From NCBI GenBank assembly GCA_022824565.1, contig JAJDZQ010000120.1, positions 74,445-138,444 on the forward strand: a stretch of 64,000 nt of DNA, written 5' to 3'. The DNA comes from Anaerolineae bacterium. Lineage in GTDB: Bacteria; Chloroflexota; Anaerolineae; Aggregatilineales; Phototrophicaceae. Positions 6,275 to 22,160 of this stretch are shown here, in pieces. Each line of letters opens with the position of its first letter. Position 1 is the first letter of the stretch. The position numbers and the translations under genes are program-made. The notes beneath the pieces were generated by a model. The model did not search any database. It was not told the DNA's origin and saw nothing but the letters and a program-made list of their open reading frames with translations.

Positions 6275-6317
6275 CTCCCCTCCCTGATGCTTCGGGGAGG
6301 GGCTGGGGGAGGGGTTG
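6275..6317. repeat. G/C-tract hairpin repeat (family A)
   Basis: ctcccctccctgatgcttcggggaggggctgggggaggggttg. A stem cccctccc/ggggagggg is followed by the same G-rich tail as at 1-56. Confidence 0.75.
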
Positions 6318-12607: not shown

Positions 12608-14989
12608 TCAATTCCGCAATGGCTTGTTCGTCTGCAGCATGTGCAAGATGCGCGCTTGCGTCTTTTCTTCCACGATAAGTTGCAAAAATGCTTCGCGTTC
12701 CAGATCGAGCAGGTATTGCTGGCTGACCCACTGGGCTTCTGCCAAACCAGCGCCGCAAAGAATATGCGCCAGGTTGCGCGCGATAAACGCATCGTAAGCG
12801 CTGGCATAACCCGCCTCTTGGAAGCCTGCCACCGCCAGCAGCAAGGCGGCATAGGCATCGCGCCCGGCGGCATAGACAGGCTCGGGTTTGCGCGGCTGGT
12901 ACGACTCGCTCAAGGCCAGCGCCAGCGCTTTCGCCTCGCCCAGCAGGTGCGCGCGATTCATCACGATCTTGTCATGCTCATTCAAGAATCCCAGCGCCAG
13001 CGCTTCTTTGGCACTGCCACTGACTTTGGCTGTGGCGATGGTCTCAAACACTGTCTGCAAGCCGGCCAGCACGCCTTCTGTGCCTGTGCGCGCCAGTGGA
13101 TTGACCAGCCGCCGCAGCAGCTCTTTGCAGCCGCCGCCAGCCGGCAGCAAGCCGACGCCAACCTCCACCAAGCCCGCATATAGCTCGGCATGGGCGACCA
13201 CCGCTGTGCCCGCCATGACCAGTTCTGCGCCGCCACCCAGCGCCAGATTGTGCGCAGCGACCACCACCGGCTTTTCGGCATAACGCAAGGCTTGTGTCAA
13301 ATCCTGCAGGTCCACCAGCGCCTTTTCTATGCCGGGCACGCCGTCACTGAGCGCGCGCGGGTCGAGGTTTGCGCCGATTGAAAACCGTTCGCCGTCATTG
13401 CCGATGACCAGCGCTTTGTACTTGGCATCCGCCAGCAGTTCCAGGGCGCGCCAGCCACTTTCGATCAAGCCCGGCGTGATGCTGTTGTGCCTGGTTTGGA
13501 ATGCCCAAAGCAGCGCGCCATCATCCATGTCGAACAAGCTGCCGTGGCCATTGCTATAGACTTCTGCCTCGCCCAGCGCCGAGACAGTGATTTCGCGCCG
13601 ATCTTTCTCCAGCGGCACATAGGCTGCGCGCTGCGGGCAATAGTAGCTCGTGAACTGGCCGCCAGCATCGCGCGTATAGAAAGTTGCGTTGCCGTCCGCC
13701 AGCATGGTCTTGACCCAGTCGGCGACCGGATAACCGTCTTTTTCGAAGCGAGCGACGCTTTCGGCCACGCCGATCGCATCCCAGATCTCGAAGGGACCCA
13801 GCTGATGATTGAAGCCCCACTTATGGGCGTTATCGACATTGACGATGCTGTCGGTGATCTCGGGCACGCGCTGGGATGCATACGCCAGCAGGAATCCGTG
13901 CAGGTGATACAGGTAGCGCCCGCCGCGGTCATCGGCATTGATCAACAGGCGGATGCGCTCGCCCAGCGGCTCGACCTGGCGGTATTGCGTGACGCTGTCG
14001 AAGCGCGGTTTGCCCGGCGGCTCGTATTCCAGTGTGTCCAGGTTGAGCGCCCACAGCTCTTTCAGCCCGCCCTCGCGCCGCATGTGGTAGAAGCCCCGGC
14101 CTGTTTTGCGTCCCAGCCAGCCACGCTCCAGCAGCGCATCGGAAAGCGCCCTGTTGCCAGGGTGCATCAGCAGTTCGCGAGCAGGATCATCGGGGATAGC
14201 AGCATACAGATTGCGAGCGACGCCCACGGCGATATCAAAGCCGACCAGGTCATTCAGGTTGAAGGTGGCGGTCTTTGGGCGGCCGATAAGCGGACCCGTC
14301 AGCAGGTCGACTTCTTCTACGCTATACGCATGATCCAGCGCATAATTGGTCGCTTGCATGCCCGACATGGACATAAAGCGGTTGCCAATGAAGTTGGGCT
14401 TGTCGTTGCAAAGCACCGTGCCTTTGCCCAATTTCTCGCTGCCAAAACGCAGCATGAACGCGGCGATTTCCGGGTCGGTATCGGCATGGGGGATGATCTC
14501 CAGCAAGCGCAGATAACGCGGAGGGTTAAAGAAATGCGTACCCAGAAAACGGCGCGCAAATGCAATCGGCAGACCCGCGGCGATGCTGCCGATGGGCAAG
14601 CCAGAGGTATTGCTGCTTATGATGGCGTCTGCGCTGACGACATCCGCCAGGCGCGCGAACAGCGCTCGCTTTATTGCCAGGTTTTCGACCACCGCTTCGA
14701 TCACCCAGTCGGCAGTGGCGACTTGCTCCAGATCATCTTCTATGTTGCCGATGCGGATCTGGTTGAGATCGGCTGAACTATAGAGCTGTGGCGGTCGCGC
14801 TCTGCTCAAGGCTTTGAGATTGGCAGCGACGATGGCATTTCGCTCAGAAGCTCCGGCGTCTGGGGCGCTGTCACGCGGCGGAATATCCAGTAGCAGGGTG
14901 TCGATGCCGCAGCCAGCCAACAAAGCCGCGATGCCGCCGCCCATGGTGCCGCTGCCGATGACCGCTGCCGTCTTGATTTGGTATGCCAT
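12608..14989 (-). CDS. fadN: fused 3-hydroxyacyl-CoA dehydrogenase / enoyl-CoA hydratase (FadN-type domain order)
   Basis: N-terminal NAD fold AAVIGSGTMGGGIA and a C-terminal crotonase segment ALGGGAELVMAG...GLLPAGGG. 793 aa, sited upstream of the thiolase. Confidence 0.85.
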   Translation of the reverse strand: MAYQIKTAAVIGSGTMGGGIAALLAGCGIDTLLLDIPPRDSAPDAGASERNAIVAANLKALSRARPPQLYSSADLNQIRIGNIEDDLEQVATADWVIEAVVENLAIKRALFARLADVVSADAIISSNTSGLPIGSIAAGLPIAFARRFLGTHFFNPPRYLRLLEIIPHADTDPEIAAFMLRFGSEKLGKGTVLCNDKPNFIGNRFMSMSGMQATNYALDHAYSVEEVDLLTGPLIGRPKTATFNLNDLVGFDIAVGVARNLYAAIPDDPARELLMHPGNRALSDALLERGWLGRKTGRGFYHMRREGGLKELWALNLDTLEYEPPGKPRFDSVTQYRQVEPLGERIRLLINADDRGGRYLYHLHGFLLAYASQRVPEITDSIVNVDNAHKWGFNHQLGPFEIWDAIGVAESVARFEKDGYPVADWVKTMLADGNATFYTRDAGGQFTSYYCPQRAAYVPLEKDRREITVSALGEAEVYSNGHGSLFDMDDGALLWAFQTRHNSITPGLIESGWRALELLADAKYKALVIGNDGERFSIGANLDPRALSDGVPGIEKALVDLQDLTQALRYAEKPVVVAAHNLALGGGAELVMAGTAVVAHAELYAGLVEVGVGLLPAGGGCKELLRRLVNPLARTGTEGVLAGLQTVFETIATAKVSGSAKEALALGFLNEHDKIVMNRAHLLGEAKALALALSESYQPRKPEPVYAAGRDAYAALLLAVAGFQEAGYASAYDAFIARNLAHILCGAGLAEAQWVSQQYLLDLEREAFLQLIVEEKTQARILHMLQTNKPLRN

Positions 14990-15161
14990 CTATCCCTTCG
15001 CCTTTCGCCATTGCCGCAATCGTTTGTCATAAGAAAGGCAATATCTTTATCACAGAGAACACCTAGCTAAGACCTAGTTAATCATGCGCAACCGAGCAAC
15101 ACCGCTCATATTCGGAACATGTAGGGCTTGTCCGCTACTATAGCAAACTCGCCGGATTTCA

Positions 15162-15488
15162 CCCCCATCCCCCGGCCCCTTGCCCCCATTGAGAGGGAAG
15201 GGGAGCTAGAATCGAGGAAAATCGTCGTTATTTCTGGTGTTTTCAGCAGCACCATACCGAATTCTCATGCGATCATTCGGCTTTAAGCCCCTCCCTCTTC
15301 ATGGGCTGAGGAGAGGACATGTTTCATTCTACCCCATCCCCAGCCCTTCCCCATATCAATGGAGAAGGGAGACTCGTCGAGAAACCAGTGCAATACTTGC
15401 TATCTGCAAGAAATTGAGCATCAGTGTTCATTTTCTCTGCATGCGCTCCCCCTCCCTGATGCTTCGGGGAGAGGGTTGGGGGGTGGGG
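15162..15488. repeat. four G/C-tract hairpin repeats in a long intergenic spacer
   Basis: Hairpins at 15162-15205 (ccccttgcccccattgagagggaagggg), 15287-15317, 15331-15372 (cccttccccatatcaatggagaaggg) and 15446-15488 (family A, ctccccctccctgatgcttcggggagaggg). Confidence 0.65.
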
Positions 15489-15513
15489 CAGGCCCTCACG
15501 TGCGCTCGGGCGC

Positions 15514-16227
15514 TCACCAGGGCAATTCGCTGCCGTCGTATTGGTAGAATTTGCCCTGGTCTGCCTCGGTCAAGCCGCCGATCAATGTGTGCAAGCCACT
15601 GCCCGATTCCTCTGGTTCGAGCAGCGCGCCCGCGCCGCCCATATCGGTTTTCACCCAGCCGGGATTGGCTGTGATGGTGATGATGCCCGCCATCGCTTCA
15701 TCAAATGCCAGCACGCGCGCCGCCATGTTCATCGCCGCCTTGCTCATGCGATAGGCATAGGAATCGCCTTGCGTCCGCTGCATAGAGCCCATGCCCGACG
15801 AAATCATGACAACCCGCGGATTGTCGCCCGCGCTCAGCAGCGGCCGGCAGGCTTGCGTCACAATCAGCGCGGCCACGGCGTTGGTGGTGATGATCTCGCT
15901 GACATCGTCGGCGGACAAGCTGCCCATGTGGCTCGATTGATGTGCGCCTCTGGGATTGATGCCGGCGTTGTTGACGAGGATGTCCAGCGCGCCGGCTCTG
16001 GCTGCGATTCGCTCGGTCGCGGCGGTTATGGACCTCGCATCGTTGACATCCAGCTGCACGATGACGAGCCTGTCGGCAGCTTGCCCCGCCCGTTCTTTCA
16101 AGCCCGTAGCGGCAGACGGTCGCCGACAGCCAGCGAAGACCAGCGCATCGCCCGCGGCGACATATTGCCGCGCCAGCTCGAAGCCGATGCCACGATTCGC
16201 GCCTGTGATCAAGATTCTTTGCATCAT
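15514..16227 (-). CDS. short-chain dehydrogenase/reductase (SDR)
   Basis: TGANRGIG cofactor motif. The first 19 codons lie inside the proximal copy of the 57-bp duplication. Confidence 0.85.
   Translation of the reverse strand: MMQRILITGANRGIGFELARQYVAAGDALVFAGCRRPSAATGLKERAGQAADRLVIVQLDVNDARSITAATERIAARAGALDILVNNAGINPRGAHQSSHMGSLSADDVSEIITTNAVAALIVTQACRPLLSAGDNPRVVMISSGMGSMQRTQGDSYAYRMSKAAMNMAARVLAFDEAMAGIITITANPGWVKTDMGGAGALLEPEESGSGLHTLIGGLTEADQGKFYQYDGSELPW
16168..16224. repeat. 57-bp direct repeat, copy 1 (heads the intact SDR ORF)
   Basis: ccgcgccagctcgaagccgatgccacgattcgcgcctgtgatcaagattctttgcat, identical base for base to 17523-17579. Confidence 0.95.
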
Positions 16228-17522
16228 AGTTCTCTACCCATTCTCCATTTGTTGCGATTGAACCTCATTCAAGTCTTCGTCCGTTTCAAGCTGGCTTAAA
16301 CCTTCAGCGTCAAATTCTAAGAACTTAATCTTCTTTTGGTGGATGCCAATTTCGTTTTCAATCAGCAAGTCAAACAGTCTTTGCCCATCAATCAAAGTTA
16401 TTGGAGCAGCGCCCTTTTCAAACGCAGCAATTCTCGCAGGCATTGCGAATCCACCAGTTGTAATGATTGTGGCACGAACTGCGTCAAATCGATGTAACGA
16501 GCCGCGGAGCATATCCAGCACAGGGCGTCCCACTCTACTCCGTTGTCGCTTTACTTGGATCACTTCGCGCACCCTGCTGATGCCAACTTCTAAATCGCCT
16601 ACAACATCTACTCCTTTGTCATTACTTTGTTGTGTGACTTCGACATTTTCGTAACCCATCTTTTCAAGGAGGCGTTTAACTAGATGCTCAAATGCATAAG
16701 GTTCCATATCTTGAATATATTCCTTGAGATCTTTGCGTGCTTTGTCGCTTAACTTTTTTGCTAGGTCGCTGAGACCGAGGCTTGCTTCTCCAGGAGACCC
16801 ATCGGAAGTTAGCTGCCGCAAATGCTTAAGTCCAATGTCAGTAATCTGGTAAGCATGCCCGATTCGCTCAATAAGTTTCCGTTCTTTCAGATGGCGGAAT
16901 CGAGCGCTAAGCGCATAATCAATAGATGATGAGGCTCTCCAAGTGGTATAGGTCTGGCAGTATGTGGTAAAAGCACTAATCAAGTCAGAACGTTTGCAAG
17001 GACTCTTTTCTGCGATCTCGCTCAAGGCAAACAATAGGCCTTCACTTTTATCGATTTCTAGAACGATCTCGCTTTCGTTGTTTAGGAACTTCATTCCCTT
17101 CTCTGTAAGCCGAATCGTATCCTCTGTGAATAGCGCAAGATGGCGATTCTTGGCAAACATTCGGATATCCTGAGAATGTCGAGGATTGATCAGTTTGCCA
17201 GATTCTTGCCAAAGTCTCAGTGCCAAGTCCTTGCTCGTTCCTTCCAATCGTTCCGGAATCCATTCGTCAGGTTTCATCCAATTCACCTGGCTCTTTTGTG
17301 AACCAATTTGGGCCAAAATGTCGTTCATCATTGACACATAGCTCGAATAACGAGTCCCTTGCAGTATTCTGAGGAATTCTTGCGCACTCTCGTATGCTGG
17401 AATGTAGCCAGTCAGCGATCGGTTCTTCATTGAGTCCACGCCTCCATCAATCTAAGGAAGTGAGCGCCGCCAGTCATACATAGACAATGACTCGGCGTTT
17501 TTCTCGACATTAGACCGTTCGT
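16225..17522 (-). mobile_element. inserted single-gene cassette (Mrr-type endonuclease) bounded by a 57-bp target duplication
   Basis: The 1298-bp segment is visibly AT-richer than both flanks (by eye, not computed). It holds one gene, perfect direct repeats lie on each side, and no recombinase gene is present. Confidence 0.6.
16234..17439 (-). CDS. Mrr-like (type IV) restriction endonuclease with an N-terminal winged-helix region
   Basis: C-terminal Mrr_cat-like core FEHLVKRLLEKMGY...DKGVDVVGD...VIQVKRQ...TIITTGGF. The likely real start is ATG 17430 (MKNRSL), preceded by GGAGG. The track start is GTG 17439. Confidence 0.8.
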   Translation of the reverse strand: MDSMKNRSLTGYIPAYESAQEFLRILQGTRYSSYVSMMNDILAQIGSQKSQVNWMKPDEWIPERLEGTSKDLALRLWQESGKLINPRHSQDIRMFAKNRHLALFTEDTIRLTEKGMKFLNNESEIVLEIDKSEGLLFALSEIAEKSPCKRSDLISAFTTYCQTYTTWRASSSIDYALSARFRHLKERKLIERIGHAYQITDIGLKHLRQLTSDGSPGEASLGLSDLAKKLSDKARKDLKEYIQDMEPYAFEHLVKRLLEKMGYENVEVTQQSNDKGVDVVGDLEVGISRVREVIQVKRQRSRVGRPVLDMLRGSLHRFDAVRATIITTGGFAMPARIAAFEKGAAPITLIDGQRLFDLLIENEIGIHQKKIKFLEFDAEGLSQLETDEDLNEVQSQQMENG

Positions 17523-17579
17523 CCGCGCCAGCTCGAAGCCGATGCCACGATTCGCGCCTGTGATCAAGATTCTTTGCAT
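17427..17579 (-). pseudogene. duplicated 5' fragment of the SDR gene, read as a 50-codon remnant ORF
   Basis: ATG 17579 retains the native GGAGGAG SD 7 nt upstream. It encodes MQRILITGANRGIGFELAR plus 31 unrelated codons. Its TGA (17429-17427) overlaps the Mrr ATG as ATGA. Confidence 0.6.
17523..17579. repeat. 57-bp direct repeat, copy 2 (original SDR start context)
   Basis: Identical to 16168-16224. Confidence 0.95.
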
Positions 17580-17718
17580 GGTCGCGCTCCTCCTCTTGCT
17601 GCAGAATTGACGCGCATGATACTGGACGACCGCCCCGCATTCCAGTCCAAGCGCGCAATACCATTTCGCGCGGCGGGGACTATACTACGGCTCGGCGACT
17701 GGCTGGGGACTGGACACC

Positions 17719-18573
17719 ATGCGCGAGGGTTGGCGCGGCTGCGATTTGATCTTCTTCGATTGCGACAGCACCTTGTCCAAGATTGAAGGCATAGACGAGC
17801 TGGCGCGGCTAAAAGGAAAGGCGGCGCGGGTCGGCTTGTTGACCAACAAAGCGATGGATGGCGAGCTCGACCTGGCGGATGTCTATGGCAAGCGCCTGCA
17901 AGCCATCCGGCCCACCCGAGCACAGCTCAAAGCCGTGGAGCAGCGCTATTGGGAAACGCTGGTGGACGATGCGCCAGCAGTCATCGCGGCGCTGCAGAAA
18001 ATGGGCAAGCGAGTTTTCATCATCAGCGGCGGGCTGATTGACGCCGTGCGCGGTTTTGGACGGCGGCTGGGTGTCCCGCCCGAGCAGATCCGCGCGGTCG
18101 AGCTGGAATACAACGAGCTTTCTGGCGACTGGTGGCGCTATCATGAGCCGGGCGCGCAGCAAGCCAAGACCTACCTGGCTTATGATGAAAGCCCATTGAC
18201 CATTTCCGATGGCAAGGCGCGCATCATCGGCGAACTGGCATACGGACAGCCCGGTCGGCGGATGATGGTTGGCGATGGTTCATCCGACCTGGCAGCCAGC
18301 GGCGCGGTGGATGTCTTTGTGGGCTTTGGCGGCGTGGTGGCTCGCGAACGCGTCCAAACCGAGGCAGCGCTGTTCTTGCGGTCGGGCTCGCTCGCGGCGG
18401 TGCTGGCCCTGGCGGGCGGCTGGCGCGGTTGGAGAATGCTACAAGGCAGCCAATTCGAAGCGATTTATCGCAAAGGCATCACCCAGGCGCGGGATGCGAG
18501 CTTGCTGCGCTTCCGCGATGCATACCAACGCGAGCAGCTTATCCACGAGTTTAAGGACTTCACCCGCTTATGA
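17719..18573 (+). CDS. HAD-IB phosphoserine phosphatase-like hydrolase
   Basis: FFDCDSTL (DxDxT) and GDGSSD motifs. First gene of an ATGA-overlapping operon that ends in serA. Confidence 0.7.
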   Translation: MREGWRGCDLIFFDCDSTLSKIEGIDELARLKGKAARVGLLTNKAMDGELDLADVYGKRLQAIRPTRAQLKAVEQRYWETLVDDAPAVIAALQKMGKRVFIISGGLIDAVRGFGRRLGVPPEQIRAVELEYNELSGDWWRYHEPGAQQAKTYLAYDESPLTISDGKARIIGELAYGQPGRRMMVGDGSSDLAASGAVDVFVGFGGVVARERVQTEAALFLRSGSLAAVLALAGGWRGWRMLQGSQFEAIYRKGITQARDASLLRFRDAYQREQLIHEFKDFTRL

Positions 18574-20889: not shown

Positions 20890-21204
20890 ATGAGTCCCGA
20901 ACACAAGCTGGGCTTGCCGCTACAAGTCATACGCGAATACTGCGCAAAGCAGCCGATCCGGCGCTTGTCCCTTTTTGGCTCGGCATTGCGCGGGGAGTTG
21001 CGCCCGGACAGCGATATCGACTTGCTGGTGGAATATAACGCGGAGTCACTAATTGGCATTGACTTCTTCCAGCACATGGTCGACTTGGGCGAAATCATCG
21101 GCCGCGAAGTAGACCTGCGCACGCCAGAAGATCTGAGCCGCTATTTTCGTCAAGTTGTCTGTGAAGAGGCGAGGCCGATTTTTGAAGTCCGGCTGGGAGA
21201 GTGA
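20890..21204 (+). CDS. MNT-type nucleotidyltransferase (antitoxin-like, HEPN/MNT module)
   Basis: LFGSALRGELRPDSDIDLLVEY motif. ATG 20890 is preceded by AAGGGG. The track ORF begins at 20827. Confidence 0.75.
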   Translation: MSPEHKLGLPLQVIREYCAKQPIRRLSLFGSALRGELRPDSDIDLLVEYNAESLIGIDFFQHMVDLGEIIGREVDLRTPEDLSRYFRQVVCEEARPIFEVRLGE

Positions 21205-21250
21205 TTGCATAAGCCTGAGGATATACTCCGAGCGTGGCAAGGAGCTCCTA

Positions 21251-21805
21251 TCACGAGGGCAGTTCATCATCAGCACGCCGGCGAGCCACAAGGAATATGC
21301 CAGCAACAACGGCAGCATCGGCAATTATGAGGGTCACACCTGCTTCAAGACTGCGCCCCGATACGATCACCAGCGTTGCAATGCCGAGGACGGACAGCGA
21401 AAGCACGAATCCCAAGATCATTCCCGTGTATTCGCGGCGGCTGTATGATTGCAGAATCTGCTTTTGAAATTCAACCGCATCATCGTGACGCCGCGTCACT
21501 TGAGCGACACGGTGTGCCAGCTGCCGATCTTCCATTTGCAGTCGTGCCTGCTGCTGCCGTTCAGCTAAACCCAGGATGCGGTCAAGGCTCCCTGGCAGCA
21601 GATGTTCGTATCTTTCGGCGAAATCAGGATGCGGCAACGGCCCTTCAAAGTACTGTTGAACCTCCGCTATTATCTGGAGATCCTTTTTGGGATCACTGGG
21701 AGCACTTGGCGACCCAGCAAGCTCCTGTGTTTCACTGGATTTCGAATTATCCGCAGTCCTCAAATTCGATTCGGAATCGTTCTGTAACTTGTTGTCATCT
21801 TGCAC
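21251..21805 (-). CDS. DUF2335-like membrane protein
   Basis: The HPDFAERYEHLLPGSLDRILGLAERQQ segment resembles DUF2335, followed by two C-terminal hydrophobic helices. GTG start. Confidence 0.6.
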   Translation of the reverse strand: MQDDNKLQNDSESNLRTADNSKSSETQELAGSPSAPSDPKKDLQIIAEVQQYFEGPLPHPDFAERYEHLLPGSLDRILGLAERQQQARLQMEDRQLAHRVAQVTRRHDDAVEFQKQILQSYSRREYTGMILGFVLSLSVLGIATLVIVSGRSLEAGVTLIIADAAVVAGIFLVARRRADDELPS

Positions 21806-21810
21806 TGCAG

Positions 21811-22107
21811 CTACTTCTCAGCTAATTCTGATTCGTATCTTTGAATTGCCCAGCGCATGTCGTCTCCCACTGCCTTCCACACAGCGCGAATCGCGTCTCC
21901 GTCAGCTTTCCAACCGTCGTGTTCGCTTAAGAACCCCGGCTCGGTGCTGGATTGATCAGTCGGATTATCGTCGAAGGCGTACAACCCCCGAATCTCCTCC
22001 AACAACTCGCGATCCAAGCTGCCGCCAAAATCAACGAGCCTGGCGATGCCACGCAGAAATGGGCGCTTGGGCAAGTTAAGCGATTTCGTCAAATCGTTCT
22101 CGTTCAT
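21811..22107 (-). CDS. hypothetical protein (98 aa)
   Basis: ATG 22107 has GGGGAGG 3 nt upstream. It ends 5 nt before the DUF2335 start. No recognisable family. The longer track ORF would overlap the uvrC 3' end. Confidence 0.5.
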   Translation of the reverse strand: MNENDLTKSLNLPKRPFLRGIARLVDFGGSLDRELLEEIRGLYAFDDNPTDQSSTEPGFLSEHDGWKADGDAIRAVWKAVGDDMRWAIQRYESELAEK

Positions 22108-22132
22108 CACAACCTCCCCATTCAGCACAAAT

Positions 22133-22160
22133 AGTATCCCCATAGACCTCCACTTGTCAA
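22133..22160 (-). promoter_or_regulatory. candidate promoter of the two-gene DUF2335 module
   Basis: The minus strand reads TTGACA-16 nt-GATACT (or TTGACA-18 nt-TACTAT), placed between the uvrC stop and the 98-aa gene. Confidence 0.4.

What the first reader, a model, noticed from the sequence alone, without database searches (positions are those of the whole stretch)
16168..17579. AT-rich Mrr-type restriction endonuclease cassette inserted into the 5' end of an SDR gene with a perfect 57-bp target duplication
The 57-mer ccgcgccagctcgaagccgatgccacgattcgcgcctgtgatcaagattctttgcat occurs twice in direct orientation, at 16168-16224 and 17523-17579. The two copies were checked base by base and are identical. 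On the minus strand the 57-mer is the start codon plus the first 19 codons (MQRILITGANRGIGFELAR) of the SDR gene. The 1298 bp between the copies are visibly AT-richer than both flanks. They carry a single gene: a 401-aa protein with a winged-helix middle region and an intact Mrr_cat-like core (D...QxK: GVDVVGD...VIQVKRQ). No transposase, integrase or terminal inverted repeats are present, and 57 bp is far longer than typical IS target duplications. The pattern resembles the 'insertion with long target duplication' mode of gene mobility proposed for restriction-modification genes from Helicobacter pylori genome comparisons. The perfect identity of the copies suggests a recent event, and the structure could delete precisely by recombination between them.
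Basis: partly seen in the sequence, partly recalled or inferred. Interest (0 to 1): 0.75.

Follow-up and report, generated by a model that had tools for sequence, protein, structure and literature searches.

The report
Restriction cassette flanked by duplicated gene-start
A stand-alone restriction-enzyme gene sits between two identical copies of the first 57 bases of a metabolic gene; comparison with relatives suggests it was placed there by ordinary homologous recombination, because the cassette carries its own copy of that gene's start, not by a transposon-like jump.

Summary
An exact 57-bp direct repeat (16168-16224 and 17523-17579) brackets a 1298-bp AT-rich insert. The insert encodes one intact Mrr-family (PADLOC PDC-S02) nuclease. 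The closest relatives have an empty site with a single copy of the repeat. No mobility genes are present, and independent assemblies agree.

The interpretation needs revising. This nuclease family lies immediately upstream of the orthologous SDR gene, in a TetR-nuclease-SDR-FadB arrangement, in 28 other Anaerolineae genomes or contigs. The insert therefore did not hit a random target. Nuclease alleles are shuffled between lineages at this fixed locus.

Only genomes that lack TetR carry the upstream SDR fragment: the window, L008, L095 and L098. In all of them the repeat starts at the SDR start codon, but it ends at different depths (57, about 60-70, about 98 nt). In L008 the two copies differ at 11 of 57 sites, all synonymous, in a mosaic host/donor pattern. 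Cassette dS between window and L008 is 0.24, against 0.73-1.01 for host genes.

The repeat is best explained as a cassette-borne homology arm, integrated Campbell-style or imported with a crossover inside the repeat. It meets the operational criteria of the known class 'insertion with long target duplication' and suggests a possible mechanism for it.

The parts
17523..17579 (-). Upstream copy of the 57-bp repeat (R_up). It is the SDR start codon plus 18 codons, still behind the native SDR promoter and Shine-Dalgarno sequence (GAGGAGGAG), and is now fused to cassette sequence.
   Evidence: Exact match to the other copy. The upstream 60 nt are nearly identical to the empty-site relative L088, with 2 differences.
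16168..16224 (-). Downstream copy of the 57-bp repeat (R_dn). It forms the first 19 codons of the intact SDR gene.
16225..17522 (-). The 1298-bp AT-rich cassette: a 92-nt leader, the nuclease gene, and a 9-nt spacer (AGAACTATG after the TAG stop).
   Evidence: GC profile. Absent from empty-site relatives. The Logan unitig L005 equals this stretch plus 30 nt on each side.
16234..17430 (-). Solitary Mrr-family nuclease gene, a candidate Type IV, modification-dependent restriction enzyme. It is 398 aa, with an N-terminal helical/winged-helix region and a C-terminal PD-(D/E)xK domain.
   Evidence: Pfam Mrr_cat E 1.8e-28. PADLOC PDC-S02 model PDLC04796 E 3.9e-125 over the full length. Invariant D275, E289, Q292 and K294. 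AlphaFold model with pLDDT 81, matching MspJI, AspBHI and FokI. dN/dS about 0.18 against L008.
17431..17522 (-). The 92-nt leader between R_up and the nuclease ATG. It contains a GGAGG Shine-Dalgarno sequence 10 nt before the ATG. It is homologous to the last ~92 nt of the longer L095 leader, and may be a decayed relic of the TetR 3' end.
   Evidence: The TetR-3' profile gives a weak, collinear hit of 3.3 bits (2 of 1000 shuffles reach it); L008 gives 6.3 bits (0 of 1000).
17427..17579 (-). A 50-codon fusion ORF: 19 SDR codons plus 31 leader codons. Its TGA overlaps the nuclease ATG (ATGA). It is probably an incidental by-product.
   Evidence: The ORF is not conserved: it has 29 codons in L008 and 38 in L095, and both stop well before the nuclease ATG.
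15514..16224 (-). Intact SDR (short-chain dehydrogenase) gene, 236 aa. It starts 9 nt after the nuclease stop codon (6 nt to the alternative in-frame ATG at 16227).
   Evidence: Pfam adh_short E 3e-37. Same length as the orthologues at empty sites.
17580..17718 (.). Divergent promoter region (P) between HAD284 and the SDR start. It is shared with the empty-site relatives.
14796..18119 (.). A 3.3-kb tract with no SNPs between the window and strain L004, centred on the SDR and cassette. The flanks carry 0.7-1.5% SNPs. This is the footprint of a recent recombinational transfer or sweep of the cassette-bearing allele.
   Evidence: In simulation, the 99.9th-percentile maximum gap is 1724 nt, against 3324 nt observed.
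12608..14989 (-). FadB-like gene downstream of the SDR (3-hydroxyacyl-CoA dehydrogenase / enoyl-CoA hydratase). It is part of the conserved operon that hosts the cassette.
17719..18573 (+). HAD-family hydrolase (284 aa), the divergent upstream neighbour and a conserved synteny anchor.

Best explanation
The insert is a solitary Mrr-family (PDC-S02) restriction-nuclease gene tied to one chromosomal locus: the 5' side of a conserved SDR gene at the head of a beta-oxidation operon.

In most related Anaerolineae the arrangement is TetR - nuclease - SDR - FadB. Nuclease alleles are swapped between lineages by homologous recombination through the conserved flanks. The window's clade has lost TetR, and most of its members have lost the nuclease as well (the empty sites).

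The cassette re-enters such genomes using the only homology it still shares with them, which is the first tens of bases of the SDR gene that travel attached to the nuclease's 3' end. If that arm recombines additively, the result is promoter - SDR start - leader - nuclease - SDR start - rest of SDR. Additive recombination could be a single Campbell-type crossover of a circularised [leader-nuclease-SDR5'] fragment. It could equally be import of an already duplicated structure with the left crossover inside the repeat.

The repeat is therefore a homology arm and not a transposition footprint. The host gene stays intact. The nuclease is transcribed from the SDR promoter and translated from its own GGAGG site. 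Recombination between the two copies can delete the cassette precisely.

Shown: the anatomy, empty sites, ancestral adjacency, lateral sharing of the cassette, and the mosaic repeat in L008.
Inferred: the circular or tandem intermediate, co-transcription, and the enzyme's modification dependence.
For: 1. Ancestral adjacency. In 28 other genomes or contigs the homologous nuclease (43-66% identity) lies directly upstream of the orthologous SDR, which starts MQxILITGANRGIG. Twenty-seven show the full SerA-HAD-HAD<>TetR-nuclease-SDR-FadB synteny.

2. Empty sites. The closest relatives have the same promoter followed by one repeat copy.

3. Clean association. An upstream SDR fragment is found in all 4 TetR-less filled loci (window, L008, L095, L098) and in none of the 27 TetR-type loci tested.

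4. Repeat boundaries. The 5' boundary is the SDR start codon in every case, which is where donor-recipient homology begins. The 3' boundary varies: 57 nt, about 60-70 nt, about 98 nt.

5. Mosaic repeat in L008. The two copies differ at 11 of 57 sites, all synonymous (P about 3e-7 under neutrality; 0 of 200,000 simulations). At sites 1-36 the downstream copy matches the window at all 9 variable sites. At sites 54-55 the allegiance swaps. Sites 37-53 are identical.

6. Lateral sharing. Between window and L008, dS is 0.24 for the nuclease and 0.73-1.01 for five host genes. The nucleases are 91% identical where FadB is 84% identical.

7. History of L008. It retains a strong TetR-3' remnant (34 bits, E 2.8e-12) directly before its native SDR start. 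It descends from a TetR-type locus that lacked the nuclease before the cassette arrived.

8. Allele shuffling. Nuclease identity is nearly uncorrelated with host identity (Spearman 0.14, against 0.50 for the SDR).

9. A 3.3-kb SNP-free tract around the cassette between two strains.

10. No mobility genes, inverted repeats, or promoter/terminator signals within the cassette.
Against: - No circular or tandem intermediate has been seen.
- In the window itself the copies are identical. The window alone cannot distinguish homologous recombination from a staggered-break duplication.
- The crossover position in L008 rests on one dinucleotide (sites 54-55).
- The proposed TetR origin of the leader is weak: 3-6 bits for window and L008, and no signal for L095 or L098.
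- The three junction types could be nested deletions of one old structure and not independent events. The window-type leader aligns within the L095-type leader.
- A 57-nt arm is short for RecA-dependent recombination.
- The polarity of the deep history is not rooted. It is unclear whether the nuclease between TetR and SDR is itself an older insertion.
Confidence: 0.6

Rival explanations
1. A mobile restriction gene from an unrelated source inserted recently into the SDR 5' end by a homology-independent process, for example staggered double-strand breaks and fill-in. That process replicated 57 bp of the target.
For: Perfectly identical copies, an empty site in the nearest relatives, low GC, and no mobility genes. 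The class is documented, including for solitary Type IV genes (PMC2853133).
Against: - A random insertion would have to land, in the same orientation, exactly upstream of the orthologue of the gene that neighbours this nuclease in 28 other genomes or contigs.
- The repeat starts exactly at the start codon in all junction types.
- The L008 copies differ by 11 synonymous-only changes, so they were not made from one template at insertion.
- Low GC is family-wide, including at the long-resident TetR-type loci.
Confidence: 0.1
2. Vertical inheritance with repeated loss. The repeat-cassette-repeat structure arose once in an old ancestor of the TetR-less lineages. The empty sites are precise deletions by recombination between the repeats. 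Identity of the copies in the window reflects gene conversion.
For: The architecture occurs with nucleases 91%, 74% and 58% identical. The window and L095 leaders are homologous, and the window-type joint could derive from an L095-type joint by a ~105-nt deletion at a TGGCG(A/C)GG microhomology. Deletion between 57-bp direct repeats is easy. Empty-site genomes nest among filled ones.
Against: - Cassette dS (0.24) is 3-4 times lower than host dS (0.73-1.01) between window and L008.
- L008's upstream copy has host-type divergence and sits next to a TetR relic. L008's site was therefore an intact TetR-relic-SDR junction before the cassette arrived.
- Nuclease phylogeny is decoupled from host phylogeny.

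Loss by repeat recombination probably does occur, but it cannot be the whole story.
Confidence: 0.2
3. Assembly artefact. The repeat results from mis-joining a separate 1.36-kb molecule or a strain variant into the chromosome.
For: A k=31 de Bruijn graph cannot by itself distinguish repeat-insert-repeat from an empty site plus a circle.
Against: - Three assemblies from different samples give the same structure on contigs of 53-105 kb.
- A different species (L008, a 278-kb contig) and L095 (a 74-kb contig) have the same architecture with diverged copies. Assemblers resolve diverged copies unambiguously.
Confidence: 0.02

Closest known systems
Insertion with long target duplication of restriction-modification genes (Nobusato et al. 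2000; Furuta, Abe and Kobayashi 2010, PMC2853133)
   Same: A restriction gene with no mobility gene, flanked by direct repeats longer than 30 bp. The repeats correspond to a single copy at an empty site in a related genome. The insert is shorter than 20 kb and has deviating GC. Solitary Type IV genes (mcrA, and a Burkholderia case) are already in the class.
   Different: Here the duplicated 'target' is the orthologue of the cassette's ancestral neighbour. The repeat always begins at that gene's start codon. In one genome the two copies have separate (host and donor) origins. The authors left the mechanism open and suggested a property linked to double-strand breaks. The data here point to ordinary homologous recombination with a cassette-borne arm.
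Allelic substitution of restriction/defence genes at a fixed locus by homologous recombination through conserved flanks (for example the hsd locus; Furuta et al. 2010)
   Same: In the TetR-type genomes, divergent nuclease alleles occupy the same slot between the conserved TetR 3' end and the SDR 5' end. Nuclease identity is decoupled from host identity.
   Different: In the window's clade the left flank (TetR) is gone. The same sequence, the SDR start, serves on both sides, which produces a direct repeat.
Homology-facilitated illegitimate recombination and additive displacement arrays (de Vries and Wackernagel 2002; Prudhomme et al. 2002; T6SS effector-immunity arrays, Kirchberger et al. 2017, PMC5361080)
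   Same: One conserved stretch on the incoming DNA acts as an anchor and carries adjacent non-homologous DNA into the chromosome. Remnants of the resident copy are left behind.
   Different: Those events usually delete or displace resident DNA at an illegitimate joint. Here the resident gene start is retained upstream, the gene is rebuilt downstream, and both joints with the chromosome lie in homologous sequence.
Campbell-type integration and gene-restoring integrative elements (for example elements in tRNA genes that carry a copy of the tRNA 3' end)
   Same: The element carries a copy of part of the target gene. The gene stays intact after insertion, direct repeats flank the element, and precise excision is possible.
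   Different: No integrase or att-site machinery is present. The recombination is inferred to be general (RecA-type), and it is the 5' end of a protein-coding gene that is restored.
Mrr / MspJI-type modification-dependent (Type IV) restriction endonucleases; PADLOC candidate system PDC-S02
   Same: An Mrr_cat PD-(D/E)xK domain with conserved D...(E/Q)xK residues. The nuclease-domain fold matches MspJI and AspBHI. The gene is solitary, with no methyltransferase partner.
   Different: The N-terminal ~230-residue helical/winged-helix region has no sequence match in the PDB and is not Pfam Mrr_N. Activity and specificity are untested. In the papers retrieved, PDC-S02 appears only within defence-system listings or genomic surveys (titles and abstracts only, papers not read).

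Membership tests
Insertion with long target duplication (operational class of Furuta et al. 2010) | A restriction (R, M or Type IV) gene lies inside the inserted segment | tested here: met
   Mrr_cat nuclease gene at 16234-17430.
Insertion with long target duplication (operational class of Furuta et al. 2010) | Direct repeats longer than 30 bp flank the insert, and the insert is shorter than 20 kb | tested here: met
   A 57-bp exact repeat and a 1298-bp insert.
Insertion with long target duplication (operational class of Furuta et al. 2010) | A related genome has an empty site with one copy of the repeat and conserved flanks | tested here: met
   L088-L094: the same promoter, one copy, then the SDR.
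Insertion with long target duplication (operational class of Furuta et al. 2010) | No transposase, integrase or other mobile element is associated | tested here: met
   Nothing else is in the insert. The Pfam-annotated neighbours within about 6 kb are housekeeping genes.
Insertion with long target duplication (operational class of Furuta et al. 2010) | Implied by the name: both repeat copies derive from the recipient's target at the time of insertion | tested here: inconclusive
   This cannot be told apart in the window, where the copies are identical. It is contradicted in L008, where the copies differ by 11 synonymous changes in a host/donor mosaic.
Mrr-family PD-(D/E)xK Type IV restriction endonuclease | Mrr_cat domain scoring above the Pfam threshold | tested here: met
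   99.4 bits against a cut-off of 21.
Mrr-family PD-(D/E)xK Type IV restriction endonuclease | Catalytic D...(E/Q)xK residues are conserved | tested here: met
   D275, E289, Q292 and K294 are invariant in 44 homologues.
Mrr-family PD-(D/E)xK Type IV restriction endonuclease | The nuclease fold resembles characterised modification-dependent enzymes | tested here: met
   Foldseek hits: MspJI (E 1e-5) and AspBHI (146 columns, 3.0 A rmsd). The global TM-score is low, about 0.3, because only one domain aligns.
Mrr-family PD-(D/E)xK Type IV restriction endonuclease | Cleaves modified DNA only, with no cognate methyltransferase | not testable with these tools
   No DNA methyltransferase is adjacent. 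Activity needs biochemistry.
PADLOC PDC-S02 (phage-defence candidate) | Full-length match to the family HMM | tested here: met
   PDLC04796, E 3.9e-125, residues 10-387 of the protein against positions 8-385 of 390 in the model.
Insertion sequence / transposon | Transposase gene, terminal inverted repeats, and a short (2-15 bp) target duplication | tested here: not met
   No transposase and no terminal inverted repeats. The duplication is 57 bp.
Integrase-mediated integrative element or integron cassette | Site-specific recombinase gene and att/attC sites | tested here: not met
   No recombinase in the insert or within about 6 kb. Repeat length varies between genomes.

The most novel reading that the evidence does not exclude
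The duplicated gene start may not be a passive scar. It may be the working part of a recombinase-free mobility strategy. Under this reading, a defence gene that carries a short copy of the highly conserved 5' end of a housekeeping gene can home to that gene in any related genome by host homologous recombination. It would insert without harming the gene, borrow the gene's promoter, and excise precisely as a circle ready to integrate again.

If this is general, it would supply the missing mechanism for the whole 'insertion with long target duplication' class of restriction-modification gene mobility.
Probability: 0.3. Interest if true: 0.65.

Novelty: new member of a known kind. Interest (0 to 1): 0.42.

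Why it matters
Restriction genes flanked by long direct repeats and lacking any mobility gene have been catalogued for 25 years without a mechanism. This locus offers an unusually complete natural series:
- the ancestral operon type (TetR-nuclease-SDR);
- empty sites;
- three junction variants of the repeat-flanked form;
- one genome (L008) in which the two repeat copies still carry the separate signatures of host and donor.

Together these suggest that the 'target duplication' can simply be a homology arm carried by the cassette, integrated by general recombination. They also show that a defence gene can be confined to one chromosomal slot while its alleles circulate between species. The idea can be tested directly by transformation experiments or by read-level searches for circles and deletion junctions.

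Tried and rejected
- General bracketing-repeat test. I tested all 80 homologue loci for exact direct repeats flanking the nuclease gene. 74 of 80 had none of 12 nt or more, and the distribution matched shifted-position controls. The family as a whole is therefore not repeat-flanked. A sensitive local-alignment version found the upstream fragment only in L008, the window and L095.
- Metagenome scan with the nuclease protein. It returned one distant hit and nothing useful.
- TetR-relic hypothesis for the leader. The support is weak for window and L008 (3.3 and 6.3 bits) and absent for L095 and L098. I keep it only as a possibility.
- The idea that the window's 57-mer is itself imported, based on its AT-rich codons and 9 of 57 differences from L088. 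I rejected it as unsupported. Empty-site relatives use the same codons, and another 57-nt bin is equally divergent.
- Translational coupling through the ATGA overlap of the 50-aa fusion ORF. The overlap is not conserved in L008 or L095.
- Promoter and terminator scan. Nothing on the coding strand inside the cassette.
- Rfam scan of 14900-17800. No hits.
- PDB sequence search with the family profile. No hits.
- Assembly artefact. Rejected.
Full report
OBSERVATION

The 57-mer occurs exactly twice in the window, in direct orientation, at 16168-16224 and 17523-17579. There are no mismatches, and shuffles expect no matches. The 1298 bp between the copies have GC about 0.45, against about 0.62 on both sides.

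Read on the minus strand, the layout is as follows:
- The native SDR promoter region and Shine-Dalgarno sequence (GAGGAGGAG).
- The ATG at 17579 and 18 further SDR codons, which form the upstream copy, R_up.
- A 92-nt leader containing GGAGG 10 nt before an ATG at 17430.
- A 398-aa ORF ending in TAG at 16234-16236.
- The spacer AGAACTATG.
- The downstream copy, R_dn, which is the start of an intact 236-aa SDR gene.

R_up is fused to 31 leader codons to give a 50-aa ORF. Its TGA overlaps the nuclease ATG.

The structure is not an assembly artefact. Two other metagenome assemblies from different samples carry it on contigs of 53 and 105 kb, at 99.93% and 99.41% identity to the window. Logan k=31 unitigs made directly from reads break inside the repeat exactly as expected. 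One unitig of 1358 nt equals the insert plus 30 nt on each side.

THE GENE

The protein has a Pfam Mrr_cat domain (E 1.8e-28). It matches PADLOC's phage-defence candidate PDC-S02 over its full length (E 3.9e-125). D275, E289, Q292 and K294 are invariant in 44 homologues. An AlphaFold model (mean pLDDT 81) matches, through its nuclease domain, the modification-dependent enzymes MspJI and AspBHI, and also FokI. The N-terminal helical/winged-helix region has no PDB sequence relative. dN/dS against the L008 orthologue is about 0.18, so the gene is under purifying selection. No DNA methyltransferase is adjacent. The gene is best described as a solitary enzyme, probably Type IV (modification-dependent). 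Its activity is inferred and has not been shown.

EMPTY SITES

The closest SDR orthologues (91%, 87% and 85% identical; loci L088-L094) sit in the same synteny, HAD(-) <> SDR(+) FadB(+), with no nuclease. Their promoter region is almost identical to the window's, with 2 differences in 60 nt for L088. They have one copy of the 57-mer running straight into CAATATGTC.... The cassette is therefore a true presence/absence polymorphism. The locus meets every operational criterion of 'insertion with long target duplication' (Furuta et al. 2010, PMC2853133). That class already includes solitary Type IV genes, and its mechanism is unknown.

A scan of one genome per species returned 80 loci encoding homologues. 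As a family they are not flanked by direct repeats: 74 of 80 have none, the same as the controls.

In 27 of the 80, covering essentially all the closest Chloroflexota relatives (nuclease identity 43-66%), the nuclease is immediately followed by the orthologous SDR, which starts MQxILITGANRGIG. It lies in the same synteny: SerA(-) HAD222(-) HAD284(-) <> TetR(+) nuclease(+) SDR(+) FadB(+). L097 confirms this by Pfam, with TetR_N plus TetR_C_24, and L099 has a genuine TetR 3' end before the nuclease. The SDR 5' end is therefore the nuclease's ancestral right-hand neighbour and not an arbitrary target.

In all 28 syntenic loci measured, the nuclease gene is 8-17 GC points below its neighbours. AT-richness says nothing about recency. 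Nuclease identity is almost uncorrelated with host (FadB) identity: Spearman 0.14, against 0.50 for the SDR. Host pairs with FadB of 88% or more have a median nuclease identity of 51%. Alleles are evidently exchanged between lineages at this one fixed slot.

THE REPEAT-FLANKED FORM

An upstream SDR fragment exists only where TetR is absent: the window, L008, L095 and L098. None of the 27 TetR-type loci tested has one.

- L008 is an Anaerolineae MAG whose host genes are about 80% identical to the window at nucleotide level. It has the same cassette at the same site, with a nuclease 91% identical.
- L095 has a nuclease 74% identical, a repeat of about 98 nt (33 codons), and a 155-nt leader. The last ~92 nt of that leader align with the window's leader.
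- L098 has a nuclease 58% identical. It is a 1319-nt unitig that begins inside an SDR fragment (...RGIGFELTRQYAA...) 84 nt before the nuclease ATG, and ends 31 nt into an SDR start. This is the same unitig signature as in the window.

In every case the repeat begins at the SDR start codon, while its other end lies at a different depth. That is expected if the left boundary is simply where homology between incoming DNA and the chromosome begins, and the right boundary is an illegitimate joint.

L008 IS THE MOST INFORMATIVE LOCUS

Its two 57-nt copies differ at 11 positions, and all 11 changes are synonymous. The probability is about 3e-7 if the upstream copy were a neutral relic (0 of 200,000 simulations). 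Both copies therefore come from functional SDR genes.

The differences form a mosaic:
- At the nine variable sites in positions 1-36, the downstream copy has the window-clade state. The upstream copy has GC-rich codons at host-level divergence, 13 of 57 from the window.
- Positions 37-53 are identical in both copies.
- At positions 54-55 the allegiance swaps.

This is the pattern left by a crossover inside the repeat between a resident SDR start and a cassette-borne SDR start.

Synonymous divergence between window and L008 is 0.24 for the nuclease and 0.73-1.01 for five host genes. The nucleases are 91% identical where FadB is 84% identical, whereas other host pairs at that FadB level have nucleases of about 50-60% identity.

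L008's promoter region also contains a strong TetR-3' remnant (34 bits, E 2.8e-12) ending about 18 nt before its native SDR start. L008's lineage therefore descends from a TetR-type locus, lacked the nuclease, and then received the cassette laterally from a member of the window's clade.

Within the window's own species, a second strain (L004) shows a 3.3-kb SNP-free tract centred on the cassette, amid flanks with 0.7-1.5% SNPs. In simulation the 99.9th-percentile maximum gap is 1724 nt, against 3324 nt observed. This is the footprint of recent recombinational spread or a sweep of the filled allele.

MECHANISM (BEST EXPLANATION, CONFIDENCE ABOUT 0.6)

The nuclease gene is a locus-bound cassette that moves by host homologous recombination. 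Where both conserved flanks exist (TetR 3' end and SDR 5' end), alleles are simply replaced. Where TetR has been lost, the only shared homology is the SDR start attached to the cassette.

One illegitimate joint between that SDR segment and the nuclease's upstream leader yields a unit whose single homology arm recombines with a promoter-SDR site and is thereby duplicated. The joint could form by circularisation of a fragment or by a tandem duplication in a donor. Once formed, the repeat-flanked unit can do three things:
- be imported into other genomes with a crossover inside the repeat (L008);
- spread within a species with longer arms (L004);
- be lost precisely by recombination between the copies.

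Co-transcription from the SDR promoter is inferred from the lack of promoter or terminator signals in the cassette. The ATGA coupling of the 50-aa fusion ORF is not conserved and is probably incidental.

WHAT REMAINS UNCERTAIN

- No intermediate has been observed.
- In the window the copies are identical, so this genome alone cannot exclude a staggered-break duplication.
- The TetR origin of the leader is only weakly supported.
- The three junction types may be independent events, or nested deletions of one old structure. The window-type joint could derive from an L095-type joint by a ~105-nt deletion at a TGGCG(A/C)GG microhomology.
- The deep polarity is not rooted. It is unclear whether TetR-SDR without a nuclease is the older state.
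- Vertical inheritance with repeated loss probably contributes to the pattern, but it cannot explain the dS contrast or the L008 mosaic.

VERDICT

By its operational criteria this is a new member of the known class 'restriction gene insertion with long target duplication'. The nuclease belongs to a known family. The added value is comparative evidence that the 'target duplication' here is a homology arm inherited from the cassette's ancestral neighbour. This gives a concrete, testable mechanism for a class whose mechanism has been open. Interest is moderate, at 0.42.

Noticed in passing
window 20890-22143 (between SerA and UvrC): Three small genes lie here: NTP_transf_2 (104 aa, 20890-21204, +), DUF2335 (184 aa, 21251-21805, -) and a 110-aa ORF (21811-22143, -). 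This slot is variable among relatives. L008 lacks all three. L090 has a 101-aa ORF plus DUF2335. L091 has only the nucleotidyltransferase. L093 has a HepT-like plus NTP_transf_2 pair, which resembles a toxin-antitoxin module. It looks like a second small-gene hotspot.
   Followed up: partly
window 14990-15513 (SDR-FadB intergenic region): This spacer is 524 nt in the window, about 270 nt in L088 and about 50 nt in L090/L091. It contains C-rich direct repeats (TTCACCCCCATCCCC... at 15158 and 15327). It also contains a 34-nt hairpin-like element (CCCCTCCCTGATGCTTCGGGGAGAGGG..., about 15449-15482) that recurs at window 6277-6309 and 3-35. This may be a small REP/MITE-like repeat.
   Followed up: partly
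L091-L093 (8170-9998) and L095 (9375-11179), in related loci: In several relatives a DUF4276 gene plus an AAA_15/AAA_21 ATPase gene are inserted on the opposite strand right after FadB. In L091-L093 the thiolase gene follows; L095 ends before it can be seen. The window lacks this pair. The same beta-oxidation operon therefore hosts a second variable insert; whether it is a defence module was not tested.
   Followed up: no
L022 and L024 (7199-8700); L025 (7167-7199): Two TetR-type genomes carry two tandem SDR paralogues after the nuclease. One genome (L025) has the nuclease followed directly by FadB with no SDR. The SDR position is itself rearrangement-prone.
   Followed up: no
Logan contigs L098 and L099, and others about 1.3 kb long: Many nuclease homologues sit on Logan contigs of 1308-1379 nt, barely longer than the gene. 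L099 (TetR-type) ends in the conserved TetR 3' end and SDR 5' end. This suggests assembly-graph branching caused by co-existing alternative alleles at this locus within single samples.
   Followed up: partly
window 17580-17718 and the equivalent region in L008, L088-L091 and L095: The HAD<>SDR intergenic region contains a core conserved across deep lineages (GTAGTATAGT...GCGAAATGGTATTGCGCGCTTGGACTGGAATGCG...TATCATG). This may be a shared divergent promoter or operator. There is no Rfam match.
   Followed up: no
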